Part shown: piece by piece, positions 17,345-60,525 of the stretch
Layout: each line of letters opens with the position of its first letter
How positions within the stretch are numbered: the first letter of the stretch is position 1
IMG/VR virus record: IMGVR_UViG_3300033120_000845
Coordinates: 32,001-96,000 of that record
DNA length: 64,000 bases
Strand: one strand, 5' to 3'
Source of the DNA: a virus
Lineage: Duplodnaviria; Caudoviricetes
Program-made: the position numbers and the translations under genes
Notes under the pieces: model-generated
Databases searched by the model: none
The model's input: the letters and a program-made list of their open reading frames with translations, nothing else
What the model was told of the DNA's origin: nothing

Positions 17345-17356
17345 CATTAAAAATAT

Positions 17357-17386: not shown

Positions 17387-17404
17387 AAAATATGAAACCA
17401 AAAC

Positions 17405-18873: not shown

Positions 18874-18874
18874 A

Positions 18875-19396: not shown

Positions 19397-19398
19397 AT

Positions 19399-19965: not shown

Positions 19966-19976
19966 AAGAATAAGTA

Positions 19977-20309: not shown

Positions 20310-20312
20310 AAA

Positions 20313-28064: not shown

Positions 28065-28069
28065 AAATC

Positions 28070-28510: not shown

Positions 28511-28519
28511 ACAAATTAA

Positions 28520-41216: not shown

Positions 41217-41227
41217 TTATTTCTGTC

Positions 41228-41270
41228 AAACTAACCAATTTTCAAAATCTAATTAAATTAACTAATTTTG
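41228..41270 (+). promoter_or_regulatory. phage late-type promoter
   Basis: AAACTAACCAATTTT (41228-41242) and TAATTTTG (41263-41270). Confidence 0.75.
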
Positions 41271-41299
41271 CCCTCTAAACCCATAGGAGGGCATTTTTT
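41269..41299 (+). terminator. intrinsic terminator overlapping promoter start site
   Basis: TGCCCTC-TAAACCCATAG-GAGGGCA-TTTTTT. Confidence 0.6.
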
Positions 41300-41302
41300 A
41301 TT

Positions 41303-44134
41303 ATGAGCAGTTACGTTTCAACACAACCAATCCAATACAATCAAACAACTTCCAACATAAATTTACCGTTAACCAACACGGTACTTTCCACTATGGAAGG
41401 AAGATATAATCAGAATAAAGCGCAAATACAACAAGTGTTAGATGCTTACGGTTCTATTGATTTATTACGAGATGAAGATAAGCAATACTTGGCGGGGAAG
41501 CTAAATGATATAACAAATGAGATAAATCAGTCAGGAAATAGAAACTTGGCTAAATCTTATGTGGCACAAAATATTTTCAGCAAAGTAAAAACTGTTGCCC
41601 AAGATGCCGTTGTTTTAGATGCTATGGAATCCACTTCAAAGTACAATAACTTTGTGAAGCAGGTGCAGGAAACAAAAGAAAAGAAGCCTGAATTATATAA
41701 CGATGCAAACTATAATTTTGCATTATATGAGGGAGGTTTTAATGACTATATGCAAGGGAAGACTAATAAAGTAGGTACTTTGAATTATACTCCATTTAAA
41801 GATGTTCAGAAAAAATTAAATGATGAGATTTACAAAATAGAACAGCTTTCAAAAGAACAAACTATCCAATATATAGATAATGAGGGGTATATTAAAGAGG
41901 TGAAAAAACAAATGCTTACTCCTGATGAAGTTAGGCAAATAGCAGCATCAAATTTAAACAATGATGATTTTAAACAGATTGAAATCAATGGTTGGGTAAA
42001 TACAGGAGGATATCAAGACACTTCTATTGTAGATAGTGCAAAAGCCTATGTCAAAGAGAAAGTTGATTATAATAGCGCAAAAGCCCTTTCAATACAAGCT
42101 CTGATTGACAATGGAGGTTTAGATAAGGATACGGAAGCGAGTTATAAAAATCAAGTGCAGGCATATACAAATCAAGTAAAAGAATTAGAAAGGTATGGAA
42201 ACAGTTTATCTTCAGTAAAACAAGCGGCAAGCTATGTAGAAAAAGAGAGAACTGTTGAAAATGCAGTTAAAACTTTTGGTGGACTACATGTTCAGAGCAC
42301 TTCTTGGAAAAAAAATGATGTGTTTTGGGAACAAAGGAATTATGAATTAAAACAAGCGGAGCTTAAATATCAAATAGAGAAAGATGCAAAAGCAGAAAAA
42401 GTAAAACAAGCGGGTGTATCAGATTTAATTGTCAGTAATTTACCATTAACTTCTGAAGAAATGCCAGATATTGATAATTTAGAATCAAAAGTAGATGCTG
42501 AAGCAACTATATATCAGACTTCTTATGACACTACATTAAAAGAATACAGAACTAAAATAGAAGACTTATCTAAAAAAGGAGATAAGGAAGCCATTGCAGT
42601 AATGGCGCTATATAAAGAAAATTTAAAAACTCAGACAGAAGCAGATGCATTTTTTAATGCCGCACAAAAACAGATTCAAACAAATAGTGGACTCAGAATT
42701 TTAGAAAACAAAGATGGAGTACCTACTAATTATATGAGTTTAATTTCAGATAGCAGAAATAAGTATAAAAAATTAATTGAAGCTAAAGTTCAAGCATCAG
42801 AAGAAGCTGAAAAACAACATACAGACTCCACTATAAACACAGATGAAACCTTTTCCGCATTTTATAATAATCCAAATACAAAGATGATGTGGAAGGATGT
42901 AAACGGAGTTGAAAAAGCAATGCCTGTTTACAAAGTCCTACAAGCTAATGGATTAATGGATGCAAAGGGTAAGAAAATTGGAGACTTGAATGACAAAAAA
43001 GAAGTTTTAAACACTCTTAAAAAATCATACTATGCGGATAAGATTTTAACCAGAACAAATGAAAATTCAAGAGATACAAGTTGGAGTTCTGTTAGAGAAC
43101 TTGCTAAAATGTTTGGAGAAAAAGCTGACGATGTAACTTTTGGTGGAACGATATGGGAAGATACTGTGACATTTAATCCTAAAACAAAAACAGGACAATT
43201 TTTATTACAAGCCAGAAAAAATGGAGTGTATGACACATTTAATTTTTCTGACCAATCCTTGTCTTCGGATGATGCAACAATCGGCAGATTTTTAAAATCT
43301 AATTATAGAGAAAATGAATCTTACAAACAAAAACTGAAATCTTTATATGGTAATTTACCTTCTAACAAATCAGTTGGAGTTACAAAAGAGGATAAAACTA
43401 ACTTTGATAGATTATTAGAGGTAGCTAAAAGCGATGCCTCTGAAGATAAATTTGCCATTAATAGTAATGCCAACACTATCAATGTAAAACTTGACGGAGA
43501 TTATGTTGTAATGTCACAAGTAGAAGGCACAGGAGAAAAAGCTACAGCTACCCAAACAAGAGTACCAAAAGCAGATTTTATAAAAAATGCGCCGGGATTG
43601 GCTCAAAAGTTGGATTTTGAAACAGAGGCTTCCTTTTATCAACTAGGAAGGATAGATAACTCAGATTTGGTTTCAGAACCAGTTAAATTTTATGGTAAAG
43701 AAACATCATCTAGGCTCTTTAAATACGGAAGTCAAATAGTTTTAAAAGGAGATATCGAAAAATCCGCTTATCTTAGAAAAGAGGACGCTATAAAAAAAAT
43801 AAGTGCCTTATACCCGGGAAATGAAGAGAGTGTAGAAAAAGTTATAGAAAATTCATCAAAATTCAGTTTGAATGGGGAGGTGGGTAAAAATTTTGATGGA
43901 AGCTCCTATTTAACAATATATTTAAGAAATAGTGAAGGCGGTATTATAGACCAAACTGAAGTTGATAATATTACTAATGTAGATAATTTTAAACAGATTA
44001 TTGATGAAATTCCTCAAGTCTATTATGGATATTTTGCTGAAAGAATATTTAAAGACCAATATTACTCAAAAGCAGCTAGTGGAAGGGACAGTGAAACATA
44101 TACTAAACTAATGAAAAATATAAATGGAAAATAA
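41303..44134 (+). CDS. cargo/ejection protein
   Basis: 943 aa, helical, in cargo cluster; no Cys seen. Confidence 0.65.
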   Translation: MSSYVSTQPIQYNQTTSNINLPLTNTVLSTMEGRYNQNKAQIQQVLDAYGSIDLLRDEDKQYLAGKLNDITNEINQSGNRNLAKSYVAQNIFSKVKTVAQDAVVLDAMESTSKYNNFVKQVQETKEKKPELYNDANYNFALYEGGFNDYMQGKTNKVGTLNYTPFKDVQKKLNDEIYKIEQLSKEQTIQYIDNEGYIKEVKKQMLTPDEVRQIAASNLNNDDFKQIEINGWVNTGGYQDTSIVDSAKAYVKEKVDYNSAKALSIQALIDNGGLDKDTEASYKNQVQAYTNQVKELERYGNSLSSVKQAASYVEKERTVENAVKTFGGLHVQSTSWKKNDVFWEQRNYELKQAELKYQIEKDAKAEKVKQAGVSDLIVSNLPLTSEEMPDIDNLESKVDAEATIYQTSYDTTLKEYRTKIEDLSKKGDKEAIAVMALYKENLKTQTEADAFFNAAQKQIQTNSGLRILENKDGVPTNYMSLISDSRNKYKKLIEAKVQASEEAEKQHTDSTINTDETFSAFYNNPNTKMMWKDVNGVEKAMPVYKVLQANGLMDAKGKKIGDLNDKKEVLNTLKKSYYADKILTRTNENSRDTSWSSVRELAKMFGEKADDVTFGGTIWEDTVTFNPKTKTGQFLLQARKNGVYDTFNFSDQSLSSDDATIGRFLKSNYRENESYKQKLKSLYGNLPSNKSVGVTKEDKTNFDRLLEVAKSDASEDKFAINSNANTINVKLDGDYVVMSQVEGTGEKATATQTRVPKADFIKNAPGLAQKLDFETEASFYQLGRIDNSDLVSEPVKFYGKETSSRLFKYGSQIVLKGDIEKSAYLRKEDAIKKISALYPGNEESVEKVIENSSKFSLNGEVGKNFDGSSYLTIYLRNSEGGIIDQTEVDNITNVDNFKQIIDEIPQVYYGYFAERIFKDQYYSKAASGRDSETYTKLMKNINGK

Positions 44135-46961
44135 TAATCCCAATCCTATGGGATTTACACCATTAGATTTTAGTAGTGTAACTCCACAGGAAAATTTACA
44201 AAGACAACAATTACAATCAGTAGGTACAGCTATAAAAGCAAGCTACTCAGAGGATTATTTAAAACTCCTGAACAAAGCTTCGGGGAATGACCCATTTAAA
44301 GATTTTGAGGACAAACGTGTAAAATTTAAAGATTATACAACCTCTTTTGATGCTGTATATGCGCCCCTTTCTGATAACAATTCGTTTGTTGCAAGGTATG
44401 AATCGTATTTACCAAATGTTAATAACGAAGAGAGGCTTGCACGACAACAATCAGCAGGAGAACAGTGGGCTAACGGATTTAGTAAATTAGGTTTAAAGAC
44501 ATTAACAGCAGTTGGTGGAGGCACGGTTGGTATCGTAGACTCTTTGGTTACAGGAATAAAAGAAGGTAGCTTATCCGCTGCATATAATAGCGATTTCAAT
44601 AAGTGGTTAGATGACCTAAACACTAAAATGGATTACAAACTCCCAAATTACTACACAGAAGAAGACAGAAATAAAAGTTTCTTCAGTCAAATGGGTACAG
44701 TTAATTTTTGGGCTGATAAAGTGTTTGGAGGACTTTCTTTTACTATTGGTGCAATAGGTTCAGAAGCAATTTGGGCTTCGGTAACAGGAGGTACAAGTTT
44801 GTTAGCTAAAGGTCTTGGTGGAGGGTTAGCAAGATTCAGTTCAAGAGCTATGACACCTGCCGCTACAAGAGAGGCTATGGCGGCGTGGAAAGGGATAGCA
44901 ACAGCACCAATTATAGACGCAACAAACGCCGCTAATTTTGCAGAGTCAGCTATAAGAGGAGCTAATATAGCAAAAGCTTTAGACACAGGTCGTTTCTTAG
45001 TGACATCTTCAGGGTATGAAGCAGGTGTAGAAGCTCGCCAATATATGAAACAGACAGAGGTAGATTGGCTTGAAAACTTTGAAAATACCAATGGTAGACA
45101 GCCTGATGCTTCTGAATTAGCGGGATTCAGAGATAAACTTACTTCAGCAGGGAACGTAGTATTTGCAGCGAATGTTGGAATTGTAGGTCTCTCTAACATG
45201 CTAACAATAGGAAAGTTAGTAAGAGGTAAATCAATTTCACCTGATGTTAACAATGGGTGGATGAATAGAAACTTATTTGGAATAGGATTCACTCAAACAG
45301 AGGGTGCTGGAATAAGAGCTATAGAAGCCACAACAAAACAAAAATTAGCGGGAAGAGCTTATGGGTTACTAAAAGTAGGAGCGACAGAAGGGGTATTTGA
45401 AGAAGGTATGCAAGGAGTGGCTTCAAGGTCAGCTCAAGATTATATCCTTTCAGCCTATGATGAGAATAAAATAAAACAGGGTTACAATATTATTGACAGT
45501 ATTGCTCATGGATTTAAAGAGTCTTACGGTTCTAAAGAAGGTCTTGAAGAAGTTGGAATTGGTGTTCTTGTAGGTCTTATAGGTGGTGGGGGTACTTCTT
45601 TGGCTTCGGGTAAAGGGTTGTTTAATGAGAAGGGCGTTGAAAGAGATATTGTTCAACAAAGAGTTGAGTACTATAATCAATTTCATGCAGACAATTTAAT
45701 TGAAGCTCAAAAAACCCTTGCAAAAGTTTCCGCAGCATCAGAAAGGTCAGATGTAGCAAAAGCTAATGGAGATTTATTTGGGGAGGTAAGAGCAGATACA
45801 GATGTAATGTTAGCTTCCATAGAAAGAAGTCACCAACTTTTAGATTTAGATAGGACTAAACAACAGTATGCCACAGCTTTAAACACGGTGAATAATGAAG
45901 AGTTTGCTAAAGAAATGGGTATTCCTGTTGAAGAAGTTCAGGCTTGGAAAGAGTCAAAATTAGAACAATTCAACACTTTAGTTGACAATTATGACAAAGG
46001 TACAAAAGTAGCTCAAGCATATTTAGGAGATTTTCAAATCAAAGAGATAGGGGATAAAGAAAATGTAGCGAGAGCTATTGCTTACACCTATGCTTCAGGC
46101 ATGCAAAGTCAACAAGCAGAAAAAGACCTCACCGAGACTATTTCTAAATTAGTTGGAGAGGAGTTTGGACAAGGTAAGTTTGAATCAACAATACAAGCAG
46201 ATTTACTTTTAGATAAAGTTGATAAACAAACTTTGATAGAGTTTGAAAGGTTATCAAAATCGGAGCAAGTTTTAATGACGCGGGAGAAAAAGATAACAGA
46301 ACAAACCGTTGCTACCCCAACAAGCCGAGAAGACAATCAAAAAAAAGCAACTAAAGCAGAGAATGTTAGAAGACAACTTTTAGAAGTTACAGACCAATTA
46401 GCAGAAGTACGAGGTAAAAAACAAGCCCTATCTGAAGTAATTAATCTAAACAACACTTCAAATTTACCATTAACAGTTGAAACTTTAGATAGACAAAAAG
46501 GAAACTTAGAGCAATTGAAAAGAGCTTTAGAATCTTTAAAAGAAACTAACCCTCACAAGTATGCTTTAATTAACAATTTAATTACCGCACAATCTAAAGC
46601 AATTGAATCCACTAAGTCTTTTGATAATATGTTTAGAGATTTAGCTGACCCTAAAAACAGAGTTACAGTTGTTAGAGGATTTTTAGATAAGCTGTTAAAA
46701 GCCAGACAAGGTAAAGACGATTACACTTTCTTTTCAGATATAGCTAAAACTTATGATGAAAGAGATGAACAGTTTATTGAAAAAGTACCAACACAGGAAG
46801 AAGATACAGATAGAGTAGAATTAGCAGAAGAGGAAACCCAACAGCAAGAGATAAACGCTGAGACAGTTTTTGAAGAGTTGAAGACAACAGAATCTGTAAA
46901 TAGAAGACAAGAGTTATTAAAACAATTAGAAGAACTAAACATAATTAAATTAAAATGTTAA
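44124..46961 (+). CDS. cargo/ejection protein with Gly/Ala-rich membrane-inserting helices
   Basis: Hydrophobic Gly-rich segments, EAGVEAR, TEGVFEEGMQ; sole Cys is the last residue. Confidence 0.7.
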   Translation: MENNNPNPMGFTPLDFSSVTPQENLQRQQLQSVGTAIKASYSEDYLKLLNKASGNDPFKDFEDKRVKFKDYTTSFDAVYAPLSDNNSFVARYESYLPNVNNEERLARQQSAGEQWANGFSKLGLKTLTAVGGGTVGIVDSLVTGIKEGSLSAAYNSDFNKWLDDLNTKMDYKLPNYYTEEDRNKSFFSQMGTVNFWADKVFGGLSFTIGAIGSEAIWASVTGGTSLLAKGLGGGLARFSSRAMTPAATREAMAAWKGIATAPIIDATNAANFAESAIRGANIAKALDTGRFLVTSSGYEAGVEARQYMKQTEVDWLENFENTNGRQPDASELAGFRDKLTSAGNVVFAANVGIVGLSNMLTIGKLVRGKSISPDVNNGWMNRNLFGIGFTQTEGAGIRAIEATTKQKLAGRAYGLLKVGATEGVFEEGMQGVASRSAQDYILSAYDENKIKQGYNIIDSIAHGFKESYGSKEGLEEVGIGVLVGLIGGGGTSLASGKGLFNEKGVERDIVQQRVEYYNQFHADNLIEAQKTLAKVSAASERSDVAKANGDLFGEVRADTDVMLASIERSHQLLDLDRTKQQYATALNTVNNEEFAKEMGIPVEEVQAWKESKLEQFNTLVDNYDKGTKVAQAYLGDFQIKEIGDKENVARAIAYTYASGMQSQQAEKDLTETISKLVGEEFGQGKFESTIQADLLLDKVDKQTLIEFERLSKSEQVLMTREKKITEQTVATPTSREDNQKKATKAENVRRQLLEVTDQLAEVRGKKQALSEVINLNNTSNLPLTVETLDRQKGNLEQLKRALESLKETNPHKYALINNLITAQSKAIESTKSFDNMFRDLADPKNRVTVVRGFLDKLLKARQGKDDYTFFSDIAKTYDERDEQFIEKVPTQEEDTDRVELAEEETQQQEINAETVFEELKTTESVNRRQELLKQLEELNIIKLKC

Positions 46962-47458
46962 CACCAAGAAAATTACCTGAAGAAGTTTGCAATTTACTAA
47001 ATTCAAGACTTTATGATGAATATGATGCTCATTATACTTATAGAGCCGCATCAAATTGGCTACAAAATAAGGGGTTTGTAAAAGCCGCTGAATATTTTGC
47101 AAAAGAAGCTCAAGACGAGTTAGAACATGCACAGATATTACAAAAATATATTGTAGATTGGAACGATATGCCGAAATTAATGCCTGTTGAAAACGTACCT
47201 TCGGATTTTAGAAGTTTAATAGAAATCATTGAAAAGGCTTATGAAAAAGAGACCAATCTATACGATTTATACATAGAGACAGCTAAAGAAGTTTTTGAAA
47301 TGAATGAGCTTGGAACGTACCAGTTTTTACAACAATTCATCGAAATTCAGAATAACTCTGTAATTGAATATTCAGACATGTTTAATGTTTTAGAGGATGT
47401 GGATGTAACAGATAAATATAAACTTCTAAAATTAGAGGAATTTTTATTTGGAGAATAA
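46955..47458 (+). CDS. ftn: non-haem ferritin-like protein
   Basis: DEYDAHYTY...WL...GF..AAEYF..EAQDELEHA...EKE...FLQQFIEIQ...EY; ferroxidase ligand pattern present. Confidence 0.85.
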   Translation: MLTPRKLPEEVCNLLNSRLYDEYDAHYTYRAASNWLQNKGFVKAAEYFAKEAQDELEHAQILQKYIVDWNDMPKLMPVENVPSDFRSLIEIIEKAYEKETNLYDLYIETAKEVFEMNELGTYQFLQQFIEIQNNSVIEYSDMFNVLEDVDVTDKYKLLKLEEFLFGE

Positions 47459-47478
47459 ATTTCTTTTTCTTAACTTTG
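47447..47478 (+). promoter_or_regulatory. Bacteroidota sigma-A type promoter
   Basis: TTTG (47447-47450), 20-nt spacer, TAACTTTG (47471-47478). Confidence 0.6.
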
Positions 47479-47495
47479 CCAAATAAAATTATAGA

Positions 47496-50400
47496 ATGGC
47501 TTGTGAAATAATTTACAACGGAAAAACATACACTGAACAAGAGTTCATGCAATTTATAAAAGGAGGAGGATTAGATGTAGTATCTAATCTTACCTCCAAA
47601 TCTGCTTTACAGAAAAAGATAAAAGACATTTTAAATGGTACAAGTTATGCGCTCCACTATTTTGGTAATGAAGTAGATGAAATATCCGCAAAAAAACCAA
47701 CAGAAGAGGAGATAACAGAGTACCAAACATTATTAGAAAATAAACAATTTAGGTCTCCAAGATATAAAGAACTTCGTCAAAAACTAAATGATTGGCAAAT
47801 TATTGACGGAACTATGGATAATGAACAAAACTCTTCAATTGCAGATTATGTAGAAATGTATAACTCCATTGAGGAAAATGCCAATAATCCACAACAAGGG
47901 GAAGTTACGCAAGTTACAGAATCTGATTATAATGCATTAGACCAAGTGGATGAATCAACAGAAAGAGGGGGATTTGACCCTTACTCTTCTTTATCTACCC
48001 CTGACGTAGCATTGGCTTACAATCCACCAAATAGTGAAAATAAATTACAATTTTCTTATATTAATATTGAAACTTTAGCTTCCTTTTTTCCTAACCATGA
48101 AGTGGTGATGTTGGATGAAAATGGTATTGAAGTTCCATTTGAGAGTAGAAAAGAAATTGGCACAACTTATGTTTTTAAAGGAGTAAATGAAGATTTCCAA
48201 GTGAAGGTGGTGGATAAGTCCCGCCTTGAAATGGAAGACTCAGATTTTGCTAAAAATGCTGTCGGAGTTAGAATTAAAACATCGGGAGTAAGTGCGTTTA
48301 GGACAGTTTTTAAAGAAGGTGAACCTGTAAAATCAGATTTTGAATTAAAAGATTTCAGCAGAAGCACTGCAAACTCTTTGGAAAAAGGGGAAGAACTCTC
48401 TATAATGGTTGACCCAAATAATGAATATAATAGACAGGTGTTGTATGATTTAGAAAATGGTAAGATAACAGAAGAAGAGGCAACAAATAAACTTAACATT
48501 GTAATGGTTAAGGATGGGAATGTTGTTGGTAATTTTACAGCTATTGGAGAAAAACCAAAAGGCTTTCCAACTTTAGATAAGAACAAAGCAATAAGAGAAG
48601 AGGCTTTAAAACAAGCGCGAGGTTCAGTTACACCTGTAACATTATCAGTCAAAGCTAAAGTTAATATGACATTGGTGGGAAATCCAAATACAAGGTTAAA
48701 CCCTGATGGAAGCATAATAGAACAAGAAATATCAATAGACAGTCTTAATAATATTGTGTCTGTAGGTACAATGACAGATAAAGTAGCAGAAGGAAATCAT
48801 CCTAAAGACACTGTGTTTGCTTATGTAAATTCAATGTCTACCAAAAATAAAGGAAAGAAGATACCGTTTGTTGTAATACGTTATAATAATAAAAATATTG
48901 CTTTCCCTATTTCAATTAAAACAGAGAATGTTGATAATTCACAAGCATTGTTGAGTATCATCACGTCTTCTTTATCTCCATCACAAAAATCTTTAAAAAC
49001 AATTGAGTTATTAAATTCTTTGAAGGTGGACTATTCTGCAATTGATTTTACAAATCCCGCATGGATTCAATCTCAAGCAACTCAGGAGCTATTAGAAGCT
49101 TTAAGGTCTGTAACCACACCTACGATAACGATTGACTCTTTAAAAGATAAAAATCAATTGGTGGGTAATACAACTATAGGACTTGATTTAGAAAATTTTC
49201 CATTTTTTAATAACAAAATTTTATTAGAGCTTCCTGAAATATCTACAAAAGAGCAGATTAAAAAAGAAGAAACAGTAGCTACGGTTCAACCTAAAGTTAA
49301 AAAAACTAAAGATGCTGTTGTTAATAGAGAAGTATTTATAGATGGAAAATCTACGGGATATTTTGCAGTTCCAACAAGTTCCTCTAATACTCCGGGATAT
49401 ATTATAATAGACAAAAGAACATATAGTAAATGGAAAACCTTAGATGATGAGCAACAACGAATTGTAGAGAGAGAAGAGACTAACGGAATATCGCAAGAAC
49501 AGAAAGAAAAACTTAAAAAAGGAGCTGTAATGAAATTTGCAGCAGAAAAAAGAAAATTATTAGGTTTTCAAATCTCTGATGAATTACAAAAAGTAGATGT
49601 GTCTAAAATTCAGGTTGGGGATACAGCTAAGATTGGGGAAGATTTGTACGAAGTTAAGGGTTTTGCTTTTGGACAACCAATGGTTTCATTAAATGGAGAA
49701 AAGTCTAAAAAATTAAACAGTTTTAAAAACGAAGTTCAGATACAAGATGGTATTTTAAATGAGAAATCTGCATTGTACGAAAGAGCTTTAAATAACCAAG
49801 GTGTAAAACAATTTGGTTATGGGCTCTCAGAATCAGATGCAATTGAAAGTTTTAAAGAGGAAATTATTTCTCCACAACCAAAAACCAAGGAATCAAAAAA
49901 AGCAGAGGCTAAACAAGGAGAGAATACAAAAATTGAAAATATTGTATATAATAACGATGAATTTGAAGGCTCGTTTTTAGAGGATTATGAATTCCTTGCA
50001 CAAGGTAGTGAAAGTACAGTTTATAGAAGTAAAGATGGTTCGCATGTTATTAAAATATCTGAACCTTATACTTCAAAAGAAGAGAGTCTGTATAAGGCAA
50101 GAATCGCTAACACTTTATTAAGAGAAATTATTGGTAATTCAGGCTTAGAAGTAATTGGTTATTATGAATATAACGGAGTTAAAAATCCAATATTTAAGCA
50201 GAATTATGTAGAAGGAAGGACATTGTCTAAAAAAGAAGTTGAAGATTATTTAAGAACGGTTAAAGGTGTGATTGAGATAGAGGGTAGTTTCTATTTTAGA
50301 AACGCAGGTAAAATGTACGCCATAGCTGATTTTACAGATAATGTAATTCAAGATGCAGAGGGTAACATAGTTCCAATAGATTTAGATGTATATGAAGTAA

Positions 50401-53700: not shown

Positions 53701-54830
53701 GTAAGTTTTCTTATTACAACCCTTTAATTGAACAAGAGAAGTTTAGATTAGAGTTTGGCGGGATAAAAGATGAAATGAGATTTGAAGATAAAAGTCTGTT
53801 TGAACAGTATTCTAAATTAAAAAGGGTTAAAGTAGTGGACAAAAACAATCAGGAAGTTCCACAAAACAAAACTAAAGAATTTTTAGAAATCACTTTAAAA
53901 GATGATAGTGACGGCTCATTTAGAAGAATGATTCGCACACTTTTAAATGCCCCAACAGAATTATGGAATGACGCGGACGTAAGAAAGTTAAAACAGAAGA
54001 TATACCAAACAGCAATTAAGCACTCCTTAGATTTAAAATCATTTGAAGATTTAAATGAAAAAGATTCAAGACAATTGATGACAGCTTTGGTAGATGCTTT
54101 TGAAACTTCCGAATTAGATAATTTTGCAGAGGTTTATGATGAAATTTTTGCTATAAATAAAAAAGCAAGGGAGTTTGTAACCTCTGAAACAAGACCTGTA
54201 GTAAAACTGTATGATAAAACAAACGATTATAATTTATTTCAACAGTTTGGGTATCTTCCATTAGGTGATAGAGTTTATTTAAAAACAGATGCTTTGGAAA
54301 AATCACTACAGGAAGTAAAAGATATTTTAGGAGAACCTGATGCAAAACTTGTTAAGAGTATTAATTTAGAAGGTGCTGAGAATGTAGATATTGAGACAAT
54401 GCAAAAAATGGCATTATATTCAAAACGATTTAATACGCTTTTAGAAGATAATACAAAACAAGATGAAAAAGTAAAAGGAGAATTCTTTAGCAATTTGTAT
54501 GGAGAGTATTTAAAAAATCCAAATAGTCCAGAATATGAAAATTTTATTTTTACAGAAAAAGGATTAGATTACTACATTAACAAAAAAGATAATATAGATT
54601 ATAGTAAACCTCCAATTTACACAGGAAATTATTTTAAAGTATCAGAAACAGAAATTCAGGCAGATGAAATACACCCTGAAATAAGAACACAAGACGGAAG
54701 AATATACTATCCTACATCTAATAATGTATACTCTATAAACAAAGAAGATTATTTAAATAAATATGAACCTCTTGTAAACAATCAACCAATTGTTATAAGA
54801 AAAGGTAAAAATGATTTGGATTGTAAATAA
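50721..54830 (+). CDS. polyvalent cargo protein: LPD23-like, zincin, ART-like and second zincin domains
   Basis: ATNWEKGADSKWRYE, HETTHIVQQQEGF, GEVEAR; WHGS..F...GEGAQAFGWGLYFT...NYVVFD; PIHEFQH...EEILA; begins MSC, ends DCK. Confidence 0.75.
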   Translation: MSCGITYDKNGKIVEVLNEQGKPSKLYKDALKATGSEQQAKRLFLLTKTPMFKEDVIDVDNKRRAIQIKKQILGEKGAQNLDRVEEASFRMDNLRVAKDMEKAGKSAKEIKFATNWEKGADSKWRYEAEDLQLKLDEVEVDREYKFIDIVKEQGIVKAYPKLKDVKIKFEDGKGLHGARITGDGSLITIFTRRDFVFGGEEHGIESLLGIETPNGGGRTYRLSRVDIRSLEHETTHIVQQQEGFSKGGSPNDIREEAFRLSKISGESRPQVIVDALVKTLKNEKNERNRSILTATLSHFVSNDILLTDEYKKIAGEVEARSVESRIGLTPEQRRQSLLSEELGISPEDQIFLDGAFDMQNLINPLINRLEQTGLADNVYQMSSKQIEEKLRDIGIDEDIAKQISVWHGSPHSFNRFTTERIGTGEGAQAFGWGLYFTDLESIAKNYAEVLSDSSLDNYIKEFDVKLNTKYENFHDIANNLSEGKFLNESWRKEADKLIKGEIKFYKDEYKDVGISDKEAQENLKLLNELILDINNTPNKNLYKVSLHKGKTPSEYTWLEWDKPINKDEAKKIAEGFVKNNPTKYVDTDAQYQESFREVENEDGDIDLVTDIINSKESLIRFFTGMNGKDIYDFINDGFSNEILSQEEEIYQSVYGKENNNQKDTSLFLLENGIDGIKYPTESISRGATSDTARGFNYVVFDENVITIEEQIQFQKLGIELTPNGFTYKGDVYLNKDTLTQDTPIHEFQHLFSDFLKKNNIEIYNRGIELVKQELSKSNSEIKDIIGFVKANQPKLKGEALYEEILAELVGRRGVELLNSKKKSGIINWIKEAWSEIAKMLGLNNYSSEQVANMTLKEFADASAVQLLKGENISEEYPLKQVYDYYQAKNYEGEILNEFEVEEAKDVMLVNNIENSNKLFDKLTKAFIVDGVFNPTISSLKTFYSDLEVRRAFESLGSLKSFYYRFKNTTPFVNNQIESDKRFLYRRSFETNSLGKFSYYNPLIEQEKFRLEFGGIKDEMRFEDKSLFEQYSKLKRVKVVDKNNQEVPQNKTKEFLEITLKDDSDGSFRRMIRTLLNAPTELWNDADVRKLKQKIYQTAIKHSLDLKSFEDLNEKDSRQLMTALVDAFETSELDNFAEVYDEIFAINKKAREFVTSETRPVVKLYDKTNDYNLFQQFGYLPLGDRVYLKTDALEKSLQEVKDILGEPDAKLVKSINLEGAENVDIETMQKMALYSKRFNTLLEDNTKQDEKVKGEFFSNLYGEYLKNPNSPEYENFIFTEKGLDYYINKKDNIDYSKPPIYTGNYFKVSETEIQADEIHPEIRTQDGRIYYPTSNNVYSINKEDYLNKYEPLVNNQPIVIRKGKNDLDCK

Positions 54831-54846
54831 TAAATTCATACTTTTG
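54815..54846 (+). promoter_or_regulatory. Bacteroidota sigma-A type promoter
   Basis: TTTG (54815-54818), 20-nt spacer, TACTTTTG (54839-54846). Confidence 0.55.
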
Positions 54847-54850
54847 TCTT

Positions 54851-55027
54851 ATGGATAAAATAATGGAAACTTTAAAAGCACTCGGATTTAATGTGGAGAA
54901 TAAAACTCCCGAAGAGTGCTTTTCTCTTTTAATAGAGGAATATATTCTACTTTGTCAAGAAATAGAAAAGAGTAACGAAGAACAATTTAAAAAAGAAATA
55001 CAAAGACTTTTAAAACCAAATAATTAA
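54851..55027 (+). CDS. hypothetical protein, 58 aa
   Basis: Hand-translated MDKIMETLKALGFNVENKTPEECFSLLIEEYILLCQEIEK...; TAATG overlap with next gene. Confidence 0.6.
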   Translation: MDKIMETLKALGFNVENKTPEECFSLLIEEYILLCQEIEKSNEEQFKKEIQRLLKPNN

Positions 55028-58000
55028 TGGCTTGTCAAATAGTGTATGATAAACAAGGTAAAATAAAACTTGTTTTAGATAAACAGAAAAGAGAATCTAA
55101 GATTTACAATCAATTAAAGAGTCATCCTATGATAGATGACCCACTAACAGCGTATACGAACTTTCCTGAAGATATTAAGGATGAGTCTGCGTATAATGTT
55201 ATACATAAAGTTGGAGATAAATTTTACAACTCTTATAAAGAGGCTTTAAAAGCCACGAATGAAAATGGTAAGATTGAAATTGTTTTTCAAGGAGAGGGAC
55301 AGACTAAAGTGTTGTCCACAATTACAAAATCTACTGATGTAGAGACAAAAGACGGTTTTATTAATTTTTATATTGAAAATAATTTAATCGCTGATAAAAG
55401 GAAAAATGGAAAATTAACAGGGCAAGGAATTTCAAATAAAGAAAGGCTTTTTAATGCTTTAGAGATTCAAAGATTGGCAGTTTCTACATTGGGAGTGGAT
55501 TCGTTTAACTTAGACTATTATTCATTTGAAATTTCAGAACCAACTTTAGGGAAAACAAAACTGACTCTTAAAAATGGAGAAGAAGTTTTTGTATCGCCCG
55601 AAGAAATCACAAATATTAACGATTTTAGAAATCCCGAAGAAGCAAATATAGTAAAAAACTATAAAGAGCCTGTATATCGAGATTTACCAAAACCTCAGTC
55701 ACAATCTGAGGAAAGTTTGCAACTAAAATTAATGGATGTTCTTAATAACTTAGGAGTATCTGTTATGTCAATTACAGACTATACTAAAAGATATAGAATT
55801 AAAAACGGTGTTAATCCTTCTGCAAGAGCTTTAGCTGATATTGCTAATGGTGTAATTGCTTTGGAAGAAGGTGTTGCCACTATAGAAGATTTTATTGAAG
55901 AGGTGGCTCATTTTATTGAAAGCGCAACTTCGGCAGAGAAAAAAGAAAACATCCTTAGAAATATTCATAAAACTAAGGAATATATTGAACATGCGGAGGC
56001 TTACAGAACTATTTATTCCGAAGATTATTCAGGAGAAGAATTAGAAAATATTGTGAGAAGAGAAGTTCTTGGAAAAGTGATAAAAAATTCCATTCAAGAA
56101 AACGAGCAAAGAAACGAAACGGAAAGAAATATTCTTCAAAGAGCTTTTGATTTAATTGTAGATTTCGTAAATAGTATTACCTCCAATAATGAGCTTAAAA
56201 TATATTTGAATGATATTAACGATGCCATAGAACAAAATACTTCGGGACTAATTGACAGGAAAAACATCAACTCAATCTACACATTTTATTCTACTGCCAA
56301 AAGTCCTATTACAAAAGAAGTTTTAAGAATTATTGGACATTTGAATAATGTAAGAACAAATCTACCAAAAACAGACATAGCTTCCATTGTTAAAATAGAG
56401 CAACAAATTAATACTTCAGAAGAGGTGTATAGTGTTGTGGCACTTTTAGATGTAATTAACCATGCTGTAAAAAAACTACAAAACGCTTTAAAAGATTCAG
56501 AAGTGAATAATAAAGATTATGCTTTCACTTTAGAAGAAACCTCTTTATATTTTGAAACTTTGAATATTGCGGAATCATTGCCAAGAATTGCAGAGGCTTT
56601 AAGGTCACAACCGTTTGAAATCGGCAAAAAAGATTTAAAAGAAGCAACTATCTCAAGATTGCAAGAGGTTAAACAAAATCTTGACACATTAAAAGCACAG
56701 AAAGAATCTATTGTAAATACCACCACTAAAAGAATTGTGGATGAATTGATGCGAGATAGTAATAATCAGCAATCAAGGGAATATTATGAAGAAGCTATTA
56801 TAAGAGCAAAAAATGATGCAACAATCTTGTCTTCAACATTTGGAACTTTAGCAAACTCCACTGATGGTATGTTAAATATTATTGGTAAATTATTAGTTTC
56901 GATGACGGGTCAGGCACATAGAAATATGTATAATGATTATCAAGATTATGTCAATCAAATGGAATCTTTAGGATTTAAAGCTAAGGATGTTGCTGAGTTT
57001 TTGGACGGAAACTATATGATTTCTGAATTCAATTTAACAGAATTTGATAATGATAATGACAAGGATTTTATCCCTGCTTATAGAGAAATAACACAAGATA
57101 GTGAAATAACAGATGAAGAAATTATTAAGCAAAAAAATAGCAATTCTTTAAAAATTGATAGCGATATTTTCCAACAAGTTTCTGCGCGAGCTATGGAACT
57201 TTCAGATGTCAGAGTGGAGAAAAGTAGAAAGCCCGAATTCTATGAAAAAATTGAGCAACGTTATCAAAACGCAGGAATAGAAAAAGACAGCCCCACAAGA
57301 GCATATCTCAGTGTATTCCTATCGGAAGTTAGCAAGTTTAAAAATAAAGCAACAGATGAGAACGGCAAAACAGACTACACAAAACTATCCTTACAAGAGT
57401 ATGAAACTCTAAAACAGTTACAACAAGACAGAAAACTAAAAAAGGATTATTTTGATATTACATCAGGAGAACTTAAAAAAGGATTAGAATACAAAGGGCT
57501 TGATGAAAAAGGAAAACCTATTTATACTTTAGCTGATACTAATGTTTCTGATGAGGCGCGTATTGCTTTTGAGTTAAATAAATTAGATGCCCTCACTTTA
57601 GAGGAACTTAAACAAGGCGGTGATAGAGACAATACAAAAGCATTAAGAGATTTCAAAGATAGTTTAAAAGGACTAAGTAGAGAAGCACAAGTTAGATTTA
57701 TTGAAGTGAATGCCACTTTAGGTTTTACAGAGGCTTATTATGAAGCAATTCAAGCTAAGGTTTTAAATGAAGACGGAAGCGTGTCTGACAAGCCGAGTAT
57801 TCTATCTCAAATGTTAGAGCAAGGTAAGGATGAGCAAGCTAAAAGATTAGCGGAGATTAATTCTCAAATTAATACTTTACTTAAGGCTTACACAAGTAAA
57901 ACAAACCCAACAGAAATTGTTGCCGATGATATTCCTGAAACAACAAAAGAATTAATCAGACAATTACATTCTGAACGCACAGCTATTATTCAAGATTTTT

Positions 58001-60525
58001 CGGGCGAAACATTTGAAACAGAAAGACAAATTGATTTAATAACCGACACTAATGAGTCGTTCAATAAGGAATTAGATAAATACGAAAATTATAAAGATAA
58101 ACTTCAATTTATAATGGATAATACAACAGATGCTGATGCTATGTTGATTAGAAAAATGGAAGTATATTTTGATGAGTTTTTAAAAGGCAATAGAACAAAA
58201 CCGCCAAAGTCTTTAGAGCGTTTTTATAGTGGGCAAGAAACAAAAGAAAAAGTTATTTTAGAATATGCGAAAACTAAAGTGTTGCCATACTATAAGAGAA
58301 CAGCCTCTGATGAGTATTTCGAGATAGTAAACCGTTTAAAGAATAGCTCGGAAGACATTAATAAAATTATTGATGATATTAATAACTCTGAATTTTTAAA
58401 ATTACAGCCAAATCCATCGTTCTTCACAAAAGAGGAAGATGACAGTTTGAATCCAAATTACAGACCAAACCTAAGAACAGGATGGAGACAACCAAAGGCT
58501 TCTTTATATAGAAATGCTGACTTTTTTAAACTTTTCGGCGAGGGTACAAAAACAGACGACAAAGGATTTATTATTGTAGAAACAGCATCTAACAAGAAAA
58601 AGGCAGAATTTTATAACGCCACTTTAGCATTCAGATTTAAAACTTTAGATTATATGGATGTGTCTAAAGGATATAACTATTACACCGCGCCACAAATTAG
58701 GGCAAAAGGAGTGGAAAGATGGGCTAAAATATTTAATGTAGACAATTTGAAGGGTGCTGTTAAAGACCTTACAACATTTACGGAGGACGATATGATTTTA
58801 GGGGACAACTCTTTAGGAACAGACATTAGAATCATTCCTAAAATGTACACTCGAAAATTAGATGACCCTGAAGATATGTCTAAAAACTTATTCACTTCTA
58901 TGATGATGCAACATAATGAGGCAACGTTAAGGGATAGTAGGGTTAAGTATTTAGGACAGATTAATTCTGTTATGGAAACTATTCAGACAAGAGAGCAGTT
59001 TAAAGGCAAGCCTGCTGAAACAACTAATGCTTACAAACAAGCTAAGTCAGCAGTTGATTATGCGGTGTTTGGCAAACAACAAGAGTTCACAATGCCTGTA
59101 AAAACAGCTTTAGGGGAATTTGATGCTGTTAAAGTGTTGCAAGGATTTAGTAGTTTAATTAGGTTTAAAAACTTAGGTGGGTCGGTTGTAATTCCTCTAA
59201 CATCTGCAATGTCGGCAAAAGTTGTACAGCAAATTGAAAGAGTAGTTGGGCAATATTACGAGTCTAACACTTACAATTTAGCAACAAAGGATTTCTTAAA
59301 ACATGTTGCAAAAGGAACATCTGAGGCGGGTAAAATAAACCAGTCGGCTTACATTAACGTAGCGGGAAGATATTTTGGTTCTTTTGATATGGAAGAGGGG
59401 ATTAAAAACTCTAATTATAGTCCATTTCTAAAAAATCTACCAAGAAGTACAATGGCTTTATATTCTGCCTCAATGTATGGCTTGTTTGGAAAAAACTTAT
59501 TCTACACATTTAAAAATACAAGAGTAGTAGATGGTGGTGTAACGACATATCAGAAGTTTAGAGCTAATAACATCGCGCTAAAAGAAAGTGAAATCAAGCA
59601 AAAGTGGAAACAATATGAAAATGCCACAATTGATAACTATTTCGAGGTAAAAGATGGTAAGATAGTTTGGAATACAGAAAAATTAGGAAAGGATGTTGTG
59701 GACTTCAATATTGAAGACATTGAGAATTCCATTAGAGCGCAAGTGAAAAACCTTAATATCCGAGTGGATAACCAATTATCTAAAGAGGATAAGGTATTGG
59801 CTCAAAGACATGGATTACTAAATTTATTGATGATTCACCGAGGATGGTTGGTAGCAGCCACAGAAAACAGATTTAAAGGAATGCACCACAATACACAAAC
59901 GGATATGTGGGAAGAAGGAAGCTACCGTTCTTTTTATAATTATTTAGGCGGGGTGATAAAAGAATGGAGAAGAAATGGACATAGTGTAGTTAAAGCATTT
60001 AAAACAGAGTGGGATAACGCAGGTAAATTAGATAATCCCGAATTAACCTATTTGAGAAGAAGTAATCTTAAAAGAGTTGGTATTGAATTCGCAGTTTTAA
60101 ATACTTTAGCTTTAGTTTCATTAGTTATACAAGGATATGCAGATGATGACGAAAACAAAGATTTGTATGCTTTACAAATGACTAATCTACTTCTTTACAG
60201 AACAGCTTTGGAAAGTAACTCAGCTTCATTTGGAATTGGAAGTTCATACTCATCTGTAATTGATGACCCACTATTAGCTTGGCAGACTGCAAAAGATTTA
60301 TCAAAAGTTACAGATATTTTTGATTCAGGTGAAATTAGTACAGGAGCTTGGTCAGGTTACACTAAAGGGGAGCAATTCCTATTCAAGAATACGCCATTAT
60401 TAAAGCAATATAAGGACATGAGCAATCCATATGAAAAATTCAACTCAACGAAGTATTTTTCAGAGGTTAGAAATAATCAAATGGCAACAGTTCCTTTGTA
60501 TAATTTCTTAAATAAAGAAGAATAA
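55027..60525 (+). CDS. giant cargo/ejection protein
   Basis: 1832 aa; begins MAC; degenerate zincin EEVAH; helical; C-terminal hydrophobic helix (IEFAVLNTLALVSLVIQG). Confidence 0.7.
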   Translation: MACQIVYDKQGKIKLVLDKQKRESKIYNQLKSHPMIDDPLTAYTNFPEDIKDESAYNVIHKVGDKFYNSYKEALKATNENGKIEIVFQGEGQTKVLSTITKSTDVETKDGFINFYIENNLIADKRKNGKLTGQGISNKERLFNALEIQRLAVSTLGVDSFNLDYYSFEISEPTLGKTKLTLKNGEEVFVSPEEITNINDFRNPEEANIVKNYKEPVYRDLPKPQSQSEESLQLKLMDVLNNLGVSVMSITDYTKRYRIKNGVNPSARALADIANGVIALEEGVATIEDFIEEVAHFIESATSAEKKENILRNIHKTKEYIEHAEAYRTIYSEDYSGEELENIVRREVLGKVIKNSIQENEQRNETERNILQRAFDLIVDFVNSITSNNELKIYLNDINDAIEQNTSGLIDRKNINSIYTFYSTAKSPITKEVLRIIGHLNNVRTNLPKTDIASIVKIEQQINTSEEVYSVVALLDVINHAVKKLQNALKDSEVNNKDYAFTLEETSLYFETLNIAESLPRIAEALRSQPFEIGKKDLKEATISRLQEVKQNLDTLKAQKESIVNTTTKRIVDELMRDSNNQQSREYYEEAIIRAKNDATILSSTFGTLANSTDGMLNIIGKLLVSMTGQAHRNMYNDYQDYVNQMESLGFKAKDVAEFLDGNYMISEFNLTEFDNDNDKDFIPAYREITQDSEITDEEIIKQKNSNSLKIDSDIFQQVSARAMELSDVRVEKSRKPEFYEKIEQRYQNAGIEKDSPTRAYLSVFLSEVSKFKNKATDENGKTDYTKLSLQEYETLKQLQQDRKLKKDYFDITSGELKKGLEYKGLDEKGKPIYTLADTNVSDEARIAFELNKLDALTLEELKQGGDRDNTKALRDFKDSLKGLSREAQVRFIEVNATLGFTEAYYEAIQAKVLNEDGSVSDKPSILSQMLEQGKDEQAKRLAEINSQINTLLKAYTSKTNPTEIVADDIPETTKELIRQLHSERTAIIQDFSGETFETERQIDLITDTNESFNKELDKYENYKDKLQFIMDNTTDADAMLIRKMEVYFDEFLKGNRTKPPKSLERFYSGQETKEKVILEYAKTKVLPYYKRTASDEYFEIVNRLKNSSEDINKIIDDINNSEFLKLQPNPSFFTKEEDDSLNPNYRPNLRTGWRQPKASLYRNADFFKLFGEGTKTDDKGFIIVETASNKKKAEFYNATLAFRFKTLDYMDVSKGYNYYTAPQIRAKGVERWAKIFNVDNLKGAVKDLTTFTEDDMILGDNSLGTDIRIIPKMYTRKLDDPEDMSKNLFTSMMMQHNEATLRDSRVKYLGQINSVMETIQTREQFKGKPAETTNAYKQAKSAVDYAVFGKQQEFTMPVKTALGEFDAVKVLQGFSSLIRFKNLGGSVVIPLTSAMSAKVVQQIERVVGQYYESNTYNLATKDFLKHVAKGTSEAGKINQSAYINVAGRYFGSFDMEEGIKNSNYSPFLKNLPRSTMALYSASMYGLFGKNLFYTFKNTRVVDGGVTTYQKFRANNIALKESEIKQKWKQYENATIDNYFEVKDGKIVWNTEKLGKDVVDFNIEDIENSIRAQVKNLNIRVDNQLSKEDKVLAQRHGLLNLLMIHRGWLVAATENRFKGMHHNTQTDMWEEGSYRSFYNYLGGVIKEWRRNGHSVVKAFKTEWDNAGKLDNPELTYLRRSNLKRVGIEFAVLNTLALVSLVIQGYADDDENKDLYALQMTNLLLYRTALESNSASFGIGSSYSSVIDDPLLAWQTAKDLSKVTDIFDSGEISTGAWSGYTKGEQFLFKNTPLLKQYKDMSNPYEKFNSTKYFSEVRNNQMATVPLYNFLNKEE

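What the first reader, a model, noticed from the sequence alone, without database searches (positions are those of the whole stretch)
44124..60525. Head-to-tail terminal cysteines across four giant cargo proteins: candidate covalently chained ejection system
Seen: the four consecutive cargo proteins (945+1074+1369+1832 = 5,220 aa) contain, by my reading, only six Cys, each within 3 residues of a terminus. A (44124) ends IKLKC. B (47496) starts MACEIIY and ends NEDCK. C (50721) starts MSCGITY and ends DLDCK. D (55027) starts MACQIVY and has no C-terminal Cys; A has no N-terminal Cys. This leaves exactly one C-terminal/N-terminal Cys pair per junction, in gene order A-B-C-D. The N-termini of C and D are homologous over about 30 aa (CxIxYDKxGKIxxVLxxQxxxSKxY). 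The three upstream cargo proteins have no Cys that I can see. Inference: the proteins are linked C-to-N by disulfides or a shared metal into one ~590-kDa chain. It could be threaded through the tail in fixed order, led by membrane-inserting protein A, and released on reduction in the cell. The chain would behave like a split polyprotein whose effector modules (kinase, ART, zincins) can be swapped. I know of no description of such a mechanism.
Basis: partly seen in the sequence, partly recalled or inferred. Interest (0 to 1): 0.92.

Follow-up and report, generated by a model that had tools for sequence, protein, structure and literature searches.

The report
Terminal cysteines chain phage cargo proteins
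Four giant proteins that this crAss-related marine phage probably packs and injects have cysteines only at the ends that face the next protein. Hundreds of relatives keep this rule, which points to end-to-end disulfide clasps like the single one already seen by cryo-EM in cyanophage A4.

Summary
A, B, C and D total 5,220 aa (593 kDa) and hold six Cys: A945 (last residue), B3, B1073, C3, C1368 and D3. The three upstream cargo proteins (3,107 aa) have none.

It is not chance. In 25 lineages below 60% identity, 72 giant proteins (103,154 aa) hold 77 Cys, and 70 lie within 6 residues of an end. A C-terminal Cys is always followed by an N-terminal Cys on the next chain protein (32 junctions, no exception). 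Where relatives have the genes fused, the junction has no Cys; a close relative with one more link (modules rearranged) has one more pair. The rule holds in phi4:1, phi14:2 (gp67, gp66 RNAP, gp65), ΦcrAss001 (gp47, gp50, gp49), DAC15, IAS, crAss002 and a Leptolyngbya phage.

Best reading: tail-to-head disulfide clasps join the cargo proteins into a linear chain. A precedent exists. Cryo-EM of cyanopodophage A4 shows a gp27 Cys1715–gp26 Cys5 disulfide (PMC12002296), and I confirmed these are each protein's only Cys. The bond itself, ordered threading and reductive release are untested here. I found no paper stating the rule for crAss-like phages. This scan has already noted the same pattern in many other crAss-like genomes.

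The parts
44124..46961 (+). Link 1 (A, 945 aa, 104 kDa). It has no N-terminal Cys; its single Cys is the last residue (codon 46956-46958). It is a homologue of the N-terminal part of crAss001 gp47 and of the first half of phi4:1 gp038.
46955..47458 (+). Ferritin-like gene (167 aa) at the A|B split, overlapping A's Cys and stop codons. It is not a chain link (one internal Cys, at residue 12). A relative, L088, has it at the same place.
47496..50720 (+). Link 2 (B, 1074 aa). Cys3 (47502-47504) and Cys1073 (50712-50714). It has a type-2 head (MACEIIYNGKTYTE). The Kinase-PolyVal domain (residues 807-966) lies in a segment, residues ~604-968, that the 55%-identity relative lacks.
50721..54830 (+). 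Link 3 (C, 1369 aa). Cys3 (50727-50729) and Cys1368 (54822-54824). It has a type-1 head, LPD23 (87-135), an ART-PolyVal-like region (403-496, below the Pfam cut-off), two HExxH motifs (232, 745), and a conserved small beta tail domain followed by a flexible tail of ~20 aa that carries the Cys.
54851..55027 (+). Small 58-aa ORF between C and D with 2 Cys. It is not a chain link and its function is unknown.
55027..60525 (+). Last link (D, 1832 aa). Cys3 only (55033-55035) and no C-terminal Cys. It is a homologue of phi4:1 gp035, crAss001 gp49 and phi14:2 gp65. Its N-terminal 160 aa fold confidently, with Cys3 at the start of the first beta strand.
34720..44134 (+). Three Cys-free upstream cargo or ejection proteins: 1062 aa with an N-terminal SLT transglycosylase and two HExxH motifs; 1102 aa; 943 aa. 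They are not part of the Cys chain.
26052..34720 (+). Context: crAss-type tail ring proteins R2 (26052-26717) and R1 (27171-28064), then a Cys-rich 2066-aa protein (30 Cys) in the position of the muzzle protein. It is a folded tail part, not cargo. The muzzle assignment rests on gene order only.

Best explanation
A, B, C and D are virion-packed cargo or ejection proteins of a crAss-related podophage. They are kept free of cysteine except for one Cys at each terminus that faces the next protein. Inside the particle, the flexible C-terminal tail of each protein docks on the folded N-terminal head of the next. The two Cys then form an intermolecular disulfide. This gives a linear A-B-C-D concatemer of about 593 kDa, a polyprotein re-joined after translation.

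Each protein has at most one thiol per end, so the only possible products are unbranched chains (or rings of middle links). The bonds lie within 0-5 residues of the ends, so the product can still pass a narrow channel end to end.

Shown here: the pattern, its conservation, its coupling to gene fission and fusion, and the head and tail modules. Shown elsewhere by cryo-EM: such a bond in phage A4. Inferred: that the bond forms in this phage; that it fixes 1:1 stoichiometry and the order of exit; and that it is opened by the reducing host cytoplasm to free the kinase, ART-like and zincin-like (HExxH) modules.
For: (1) All six Cys of 5,220 aa sit 1-3 residues from an end, arranged as one tail/head pair per junction.

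(2) In 25 lineages below 60% identity, 70 of 77 Cys in 103,154 aa lie within 6 residues of an end. The junction table is 32 (tail Cys + head Cys), 13 (neither), 0 (tail only) and 2 (head only, both caused by my size/Cys filter). Fisher p = 7e-10.

(3) A profile search of 1.84 billion representatives gave 539 hits. Among the best 150, all 118 proteins of at least 1200 aa have a Cys within the first 7 residues, and 91 have no other Cys.

(4) Fission and fusion. A and B are one protein in 11 other lineages, with no Cys at the site. Relative L088 has five links instead of four, with one extra Cys pair; its modules are rearranged relative to C, so it is not a simple split of C. Longer fused D-like proteins hold an internal head copy without Cys.

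(5) The same rule holds in cultured crassviruses whose proteins were detected in virions. phi14:2: gp67 ..TIC / gp66 RNAP Cys3 and Cys2179 only / gp65 Cys3 only. crAss001: gp47 Cys-3 / gp50 Cys5 and Cys-9 (plus one internal Cys, 1334) / gp49 Cys5. In crAss001 gp47 lies on the opposite strand, and in the gut clade the chain genes are kilobases apart. Both facts rule out a translational-coupling artefact.

(6) Cryo-EM of cyanopodophage A4 shows a disulfide between gp27 Cys1715 and gp26 Cys5 (PMC12002296). I confirmed these are the only Cys of the 1717-aa and 1114-aa proteins.

(7) crAss001 virions do contain disulfides, in the tail (PMC10172136).

(8) Anatomy. The head folds at pLDDT 91 with Cys3 at the edge of a beta hairpin. 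The tail Cys sits on a low-confidence extension of ~20 residues.

(9) Tail class and head class covary: hydrophobic ..II..KC tails precede type-2 heads (5 junctions, Mann-Whitney p = 7e-4).
Against: There is no direct chemical evidence for this phage or any crAss-like phage. Phage assembly takes place in a reducing cytoplasm, so the bond would have to form after packaging or after lysis; gut relatives live without oxygen. The window's proteins show no sequence or profile similarity to A4 gp26 or gp27, so the precedent is an analogy. The heads of C and D are nearly the same type, so a strict order B-to-C versus C-to-D is not explained by sequence alone. Some relatives tolerate a few internal Cys: the gut epsilon clade, DAC15 and IAS.
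Confidence: 0.68

Rival explanations
1. The facing terminal Cys do bring tail and head together, but through a shared metal ion or another thiol chemistry rather than a disulfide.
For: Acidic residues often flank the tail Cys (..NEDCK..DLDCK..DENQDC). A ferritin-like gene sits at the A|B junction. Sequence alone cannot distinguish the chemistries.
Against: There is only one Cys per side and no conserved His or second Cys nearby. The only solved example is a disulfide.
Confidence: 0.1
2. The terminal Cys make like-with-like bonds (tail-tail and head-head homodimers), or bonds to other virion parts such as the portal or inner capsid proteins, not tail-to-head bonds.
For: Sequence cannot exclude other partners. 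crAss001 has homodimeric disulfides in gp57.
Against: This does not explain why the first link always lacks a head Cys and the last always lacks a tail Cys. Nor does it explain why pair number tracks link number: one more link, one more pair (L088), and fused genes with no Cys at the junction. The A4 structure shows the tail-to-head type.
Confidence: 0.07
3. The terminal Cys have separate roles unrelated to linking, such as lipidation, catalysis, or packaging or degradation signals. The general lack of Cys simply reflects selection on proteins that must be ejected.
For: Ejected proteins of other podophages are Cys-free without terminal pairs. N4 vRNAP has 0 Cys in 3500 aa, T7 gp15 and gp16 have 0, and T7 gp14 has a lone Cys2. 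Lbo-JY46 has one orphan head-type Cys5 protein.
Against: The strict pairing and its coupling to fission and fusion would be unexplained. There is no signal peptide or lipobox, and no intein or Hint domain.
Confidence: 0.05

Closest known systems
Cyanopodophage A4 (Anabaena phage A-4L) pre-ejectosome, gp27-gp26 disulfide (PNAS 2025, PMC12002296)
   Same: The upstream giant ejection protein has its only Cys 3 residues from the C-terminus, and the next protein has its only Cys at residue 5. Cryo-EM shows that these two form a disulfide that locks the C-terminal helix of gp27 into gp26. An SLT plus metallopeptidase ejection protein lies upstream, as it does here.
   Different: A4 has one junction, here there are three (up to four in a relative). 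There is no detectable sequence or profile similarity. A4 gp26 is all-alpha, whereas the head here is alpha/beta. The paper treats the bond as a local stabiliser, not as a rule or a chain. A4's proteins carry no kinase or ART modules.
RNAP-associated cargo block of Crassvirales: crAss001 gp47/gp50/gp49 (PMC10172136) and phi14:2 gp67/gp66/gp65 (bioRxiv 10.1101/2020.03.07.982082)
   Same: The first link (A ~ gp47) and the last link (D ~ gp49/gp65) are homologous. The terminal-Cys rule is the same. The block lies after crAss-type tail ring genes. These proteins are known to be packed in virions and are fused into one polyprotein in some phages.
   Different: This phage has no DFDxD RNA polymerase anywhere in its 132-kb record. 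Its middle links carry kinase, ART-like and HExxH modules instead. Neither paper mentions the cysteines.
Polyvalent proteins of phages and conjugative elements (Iyer, Burroughs, Anand, de Souza and Aravind 2017; cited from my own knowledge; Pfam Kinase-PolyVal, ART-PolyVal, LPD23)
   Same: They are giant multi-domain proteins delivered with the DNA that combine effector and peptidase modules. B and C hit these Pfam families.
   Different: In that work, as I recall it, polyvalent proteins were proposed to be single chains cut by their own peptidases. Here the chain is split at the gene level and apparently re-joined through terminal Cys.
Ejection proteins of T7 (gp14/15/16) and N4 (vRNAP gp50)
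   Same: They are large internal proteins that must unfold to leave the capsid, and they are nearly or wholly Cys-free.
   Different: They have no facing terminal Cys pairs.

Membership tests
crAss-type cargo block (gp47-like first link ... gp49/gp65-like last link) | Last link homologous to crAss001 gp49 / phi14:2 gp65 | tested here: met
   By tblastn, D matches crassvirus genes annotated as RNAP subunit. crAss001 gp49 in turn hits phi4:1, phi17:2 and phi14:2 g065. P0035, a D homologue, starts MAKQCAIIP like gp49.
crAss-type cargo block (gp47-like first link ... gp49/gp65-like last link) | First link homologous to gp47 | tested here: met
   phmmer of A against crAss001 gp47 gives E = 8e-11.
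crAss-type cargo block (gp47-like first link ... gp49/gp65-like last link) | Middle link is the two-barrel virion RNA polymerase with a DFDxD motif | tested here: not met
   No D[FY]DxD motif occurs in any frame of the window or of the whole 132,413-bp record.
crAss-type cargo block (gp47-like first link ... gp49/gp65-like last link) | Proteins present in the virion | not testable with these tools
   The phi4:1 homologues gp035, gp037, gp038, gp039 and gp040 are annotated as virion proteins from MS/MS. There are no data for this uncultured phage.
crAss-type cargo block (gp47-like first link ... gp49/gp65-like last link) | Lies downstream of crAss-type tail ring and muzzle genes | tested here: met
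   Pfam CrAss_Ring_2 (E = 1e-22) and CrAss_Ring_1 (E = 2e-10) hit at 26052-28064. The muzzle assignment of 28520-34720 rests on position only (one search found no PDB relative).
A4-type tail-to-head disulfide clasp of ejection proteins | Sole or near-sole Cys within a few residues of the facing termini of consecutive giant internal proteins | tested here: met
   for the window; for A-4L gp27 (Cys -3) and gp26 (Cys5).
A4-type tail-to-head disulfide clasp of ejection proteins | Sequence homology to A4 gp27/gp26 | tested here: not met
   blastp and phmmer gave no hit at E <= 0.01. hhalign of the D family against gp26 gave probability 0.1%.
A4-type tail-to-head disulfide clasp of ejection proteins | Disulfide actually present in the particle | not testable with these tools
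   This needs virions. It has been shown only for A4.
Polyvalent proteins | Giant proteins that combine PolyVal-type effector domains and LPD domains | tested here: met
   Kinase-PolyVal E = 1e-10 in B and LPD23 E = 6e-10 in C. ART-PolyVal E = 1e-5 in C is below the curated cut-off.
Split inteins / protein trans-splicing | N-intein (~100 aa) at the C-terminus and C-intein (~35 aa) before a +1 Cys at the next N-terminus | tested here: not met
   The Cys lie 0-5 residues from the ends. There are no Hint or intein Pfam hits.

The most novel reading that the evidence does not exclude
Terminal-Cys clasps are a general and programmable joining system of crAss-like and some other podophages. Distinct tail and head classes would specify which protein follows which. 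Any number of effector or polymerase modules, encoded as separate and even scattered genes, would then be daisy-chained in a set order, packed at 1:1, pulled through the tail as one thread, and released by host reductases. For the most abundant human gut viruses, this would mean the virion RNA polymerase enters the cell covalently tethered between two partner proteins.
Probability: 0.3. Interest if true: 0.85.

Novelty: new variant of a known kind. Interest (0 to 1): 0.72.

Why it matters
How crAss-like phages pack and inject about 0.6-0.9 MDa of protein, including their virion RNA polymerase, is an open question. The crAss001 structure paper could only say that exit order is likely set by packing and by interactions among the proteins.

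A conserved one-thiol-per-end rule offers a concrete and cheap test with phages already in culture: non-reducing gels and cross-link mass spectrometry on phi14:2, phi4:1 and crAss001.

It also has practical uses. It flags wrong start codons, for example crAss002 gp33. It identifies which genes belong to the cargo set even when they are scattered. It explains why these genes split and fuse so freely.

Tried and rejected
Complex prediction of C's last 120 aa with D's first 160 aa, each with a 22-row alignment, gave no verdict (ipSAE 0.02). This is neither support nor evidence against binding.

A Foldseek search of the head model against the PDB found no match at E <= 0.001.

megablast of the region against the phage collection found nothing. 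A single-sequence locus search in IMG/VR found nothing; the alignment query was needed.

I looked for an Erv1/ALR sulfhydryl oxidase in the phage record. There was none, but the control genomes gave no hit either, so the result is uninformative. A thioredoxin-like ORF exists outside the window. I did not count it as evidence, because phage thioredoxins usually serve nucleotide reduction.

I tried to find the retained head module at the RNAP/zincin fusion point of crAss002 gp33. The sequence there is too diverged to judge.

Translational coupling or a nucleotide-level signal was rejected, because paired genes lie on opposite strands in crAss001 and kilobases apart in the gut clade.

Inteins were rejected (see the membership test).

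Literature searches for a prior description in crAss-like phages found none. The library lacks most subscription journals.

p-crAssphage NC_024711 is not in the collection.
Full report
**What is in the window**

| Protein | Coordinates | Length | Cys positions |
|---|---|---|---|
| A | 44124-46961 | 945 aa | 945 (last residue) |
| B | 47496-50720 | 1074 aa | 3 and 1073 |
| C | 50721-54830 | 1369 aa | 3 and 1368 |
| D | 55027-60525 | 1832 aa | 3 |

- Together these make 5,220 aa (593 kDa) with six Cys, each 1-3 residues from an end.
- The three preceding giant proteins (34720-44134, 3,107 aa) have no Cys.
- In-frame stops lie 1-4 codons upstream of the starts of B, C and D, which fixes their N-termini.
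- Uniform placement would put six Cys in the 24 terminal positions with probability about 9e-15.
A ferritin-like gene (46955-47458) lies between A and B, and a 58-aa ORF (54851-55027) lies between C and D.

**What the genes are**

- Pfam finds Kinase-PolyVal in B, and in C LPD23 plus a sub-threshold ART-PolyVal match. It also finds an SLT transglycosylase at the start of the first Cys-free protein. HExxH motifs occur in C and in that SLT protein.
- PHROGs ties the Cys-free proteins and D to families named 'virion structural protein'. It ties A and B to one 1957-position family, so the two are fused elsewhere.
- crAss-type tail ring proteins R2 and R1 lie just upstream. A Cys-rich 2066-aa protein sits where the muzzle protein would be.
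- The window is bases 32001-96000 of a 132,413-bp virus record.
- The nearest cultured relatives are Cellulophaga phages phi4:1 and phi17:2, at 25-30% identity.
- D is a homologue of crAss001 gp49 and phi14:2 gp65. A is a homologue of the N-terminal part of crAss001 gp47.
- No DFDxD polymerase motif exists anywhere in the record. In this clade the middle links carry effector-type modules, where Crassvirales carry the virion RNA polymerase.

**Is the pattern conserved?**

*phi4:1.* All the proteins below except gp041 (annotated 'tail protein') were annotated as virion structural proteins on the basis of MS/MS.

| Protein | Length | Cys |
|---|---|---|
| gp038 (A+B fused) | 1957 aa | last residue only |
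| gp037 | 517 aa | 4 and 516 |
| gp035 (D homologue) | 1914 aa | 3 only |
| gp039-041 | | none |

*D homologues.* Among 35 D homologues down to 21% identity, Cys3, 4 or 5 is present in every protein with an intact start, and there is almost no other Cys.

*IMG/VR loci.* Eighty loci with 10 kb of upstream DNA show one grammar throughout:

- a first link with only a C-terminal Cys;
- zero to three middle links with an N-terminal Cys (position 3-6) and a C-terminal Cys (-1 to -6);
- a D-type last link with only the N-terminal Cys.

I reduced these loci to 25 clusters below 60% identity.

- 72 giant proteins (103,154 aa) hold 77 Cys, which is 0.075% against 1.18% in neighbouring ORFs.
- 70 of the 77 lie within 6 residues of an end.
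- The junction table is 32 both / 13 neither / 0 tail-only / 2 head-only. Both head-only cases arise because my size and Cys filter dropped short links.
- The sequences are related, so the nominal P-values (1e-136; Fisher 7e-10) overstate independence. The number of links does differ among the lineages.

*Profile search.* A profile of the head (A2) searched against 1.84 billion cluster representatives gave 539 hits. Among the best 150, all 118 proteins of at least 1200 aa have a Cys in the first 7 residues, and 91 have no other Cys.

**The rule reaches the model crassviruses**

| Phage | First link | Middle link | Last link |
|---|---|---|---|
| phi14:2 | gp67 ends ..SNTIC | gp66 (crystallised 2180-aa RNAP): Cys3 and Cys2179 only | gp65: Cys3 only |
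| crAss001 | gp47: one Cys at -3 | gp50: Cys5 and Cys-9, plus one internal | gp49: Cys5 only |

- DAC15, IAS virus and crAss002 fit the rule.
- So does Leptolyngbya phage Lbo-JY46: a 1552-aa protein ending in Cys is followed by a 2748-aa protein with Cys4 only.
- In crAss002 the rule predicts that gp33 starts 32 codons downstream of its annotated start, at MSC.
- In crAss001, gp47 lies on the opposite strand from gp50 and gp49. In the gut epsilon clade the chain genes are separated by 2-8 kb of unrelated Cys-rich genes. The pairing is therefore a property of the proteins, not of adjacent translation.

**Natural fission and fusion tests**

- A and B are a single protein in 11 other lineages, and there is no Cys at the corresponding site.
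- The split in the window's clade carries the pair ..IKLKC / MAC.., with the ferritin gene in the gap.
- Relative L088 (55% identity) has five links. Its modules are rearranged relative to C, and the extra junction carries a new pair..TKTDC / MKC...
- B's kinase module lies in a segment (~604-968) with no counterpart in L088's B-type protein, between conserved head and tail ends.
- Longer D-like proteins (2.4-3.6 kaa) keep an internal copy of the D head domain without any Cys. Their own extreme N-terminus carries the Cys hairpin.

**Anatomy of a junction**

- Heads come in at least two conserved types:
  - type 1: M-x-C-x-[IV]-x-[YR]-N-x-x-G-x-I-x-x-V-x(4)-G-x-E-S-x-L-F;
  - type 2: C-x-I-I-Y-x-G-K-x-Y-T-E.
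- The protein before D always ends with a conserved domain of ~100 aa. In most lineages this is followed by a Y-Y-S-K-x-E-L-x-x-I-x(4)-F-x-C tail.
- AF2 models D's first 160 aa at pLDDT 91. Cys3 immediately precedes the first strand of a beta hairpin. No PDB fold match was found.
- In C's last 120 aa, a small beta domain (pLDDT above 90) is followed by about 20 low-confidence residues that end in the Cys.
- Hydrophobic ..II..KC tails precede type-2 heads in 5 junctions from 4 genomes (Mann-Whitney p = 7e-4). This is a first hint of pairing specificity.

**Precedent**

A look-up of earlier notes of this scan showed that the same pattern has been reported on many other crAss-like genomes. It also pointed to a paper, which I read.

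- Cryo-EM of cyanopodophage A4 shows the C-terminal helix of gp27 inserted into gp26 and locked by a disulfide between gp27 Cys1715 and gp26 Cys5 (PMC12002296).
- From the A-4L genome I verified that gp27 (1717 aa) has only Cys1715 and gp26 (1114 aa) has only Cys5. gp29 has no Cys.
- No sequence or profile similarity links these proteins to the window's proteins.
- crAss001 virions also contain disulfides, in the tail (PMC10172136).
- N4 vRNAP (3500 aa), T7 gp15 and T7 gp16 have no Cys at all. Avoiding Cys is therefore common in ejected proteins, and the facing terminal pair is the special feature.

**Interpretation**

The most economical reading is a tail-to-head disulfide clasp at each junction, giving a linear A-B-C-D chain. 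One thiol per end guarantees unbranched products. Placement at the very ends keeps the product threadable through channel constrictions below 50 Å, which force partial unfolding (PMC10172136).

Three steps are inference:

- that oxidation occurs inside the particle or after lysis;
- that the chain fixes stoichiometry and exit order;
- that host reductases release the modules.

The rivals each have low odds, because none explains the parity and the fission/fusion coupling. They are a metal bridge, like-with-like or other partners, and unrelated roles for the Cys.

The complex prediction gave no verdict and counts for nothing either way.

**Novelty**

- A single such bond is published for A4.
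- None of my nine literature searches found three things: the rule across crAss-like phages, multi-link chains, and the coupling to gene splitting.
- Neither the crAss001 nor the phi14:2 paper mentions the cysteines.
- I therefore class this as a new variant of a known kind.

Noticed in passing
window 46955-47458: A ferritin-like gene (Pfam Ferritin, E = 3e-20) sits exactly at the A|B split, and its ATG overlaps A's final Cys codon. The 55%-identity relative L088 has it at the same place (L088:1486-1986). Whether it bears on redox or iron chemistry at the junction is unknown.
   Followed up: partly
window 61587-62054; L089:7469-7936; L001 (phi4:1 gp036): A YpsA/SLOG-family gene recurs next to the D-type gene in several relatives. 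Its function here is unknown.
   Followed up: no
L085 (crAss002 NC_055828) 9270-22007: The annotated gp33 start is probably 32 codons too early. An internal Met gives MSCTPSN.., which matches the head rule, and gp32 upstream ends ..SFVCS.
   Followed up: partly
L093 (N4) and L095 (T7): N4 vRNAP (3500 aa) and T7 gp15 and gp16 contain no cysteine at all. T7 gp14 has one, at residue 2. Cys avoidance looks general for ejected podophage proteins.
   Followed up: partly
L039-L081 (gut epsilon-crAss-like contigs): Between the middle link (..NKLEC[KR]) and the D-type gene lie 2-8 kb of highly variable, Cys-rich small genes that differ from contig to contig. This looks like a hypervariable insertion zone inside the cargo block.
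   Followed up: no
G000:C1:28719-28949 (-), outside the window: The phage record has a thioredoxin-like ORF (Pfam PF00085, 33.7 bits).
   Followed up: no
whole record G000 (132,413 bp): No DFDxD or DYDxD two-barrel RNA polymerase motif occurs in any frame. Unlike Crassvirales, this phi4:1-like phage seems to lack the virion RNAP although it keeps the gp47-like and gp49-like links.
   Followed up: partly
L087 (Leptolyngbya phage Lbo-JY46) 2626-4650: A 674-aa protein has a single Cys, at residue 5, but no upstream protein with a tail Cys was found. This is an orphan head-type Cys.
   Followed up: partly
L086 (IAS virus) 11019-20001: gp055 and gp056 overlap and contain ambiguous residues (X). They look like one RNAP gene broken by sequence ambiguities. 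Read together, they fit the head-Cys5 and tail-Cys-3 rule.
   Followed up: no
window 34720-37908: The first Cys-free cargo protein combines an N-terminal SLT transglycosylase with two HExxH motifs (residues 595 and 861). This is the same domain mix as A4 gp28, though no sequence similarity was found.
   Followed up: partly
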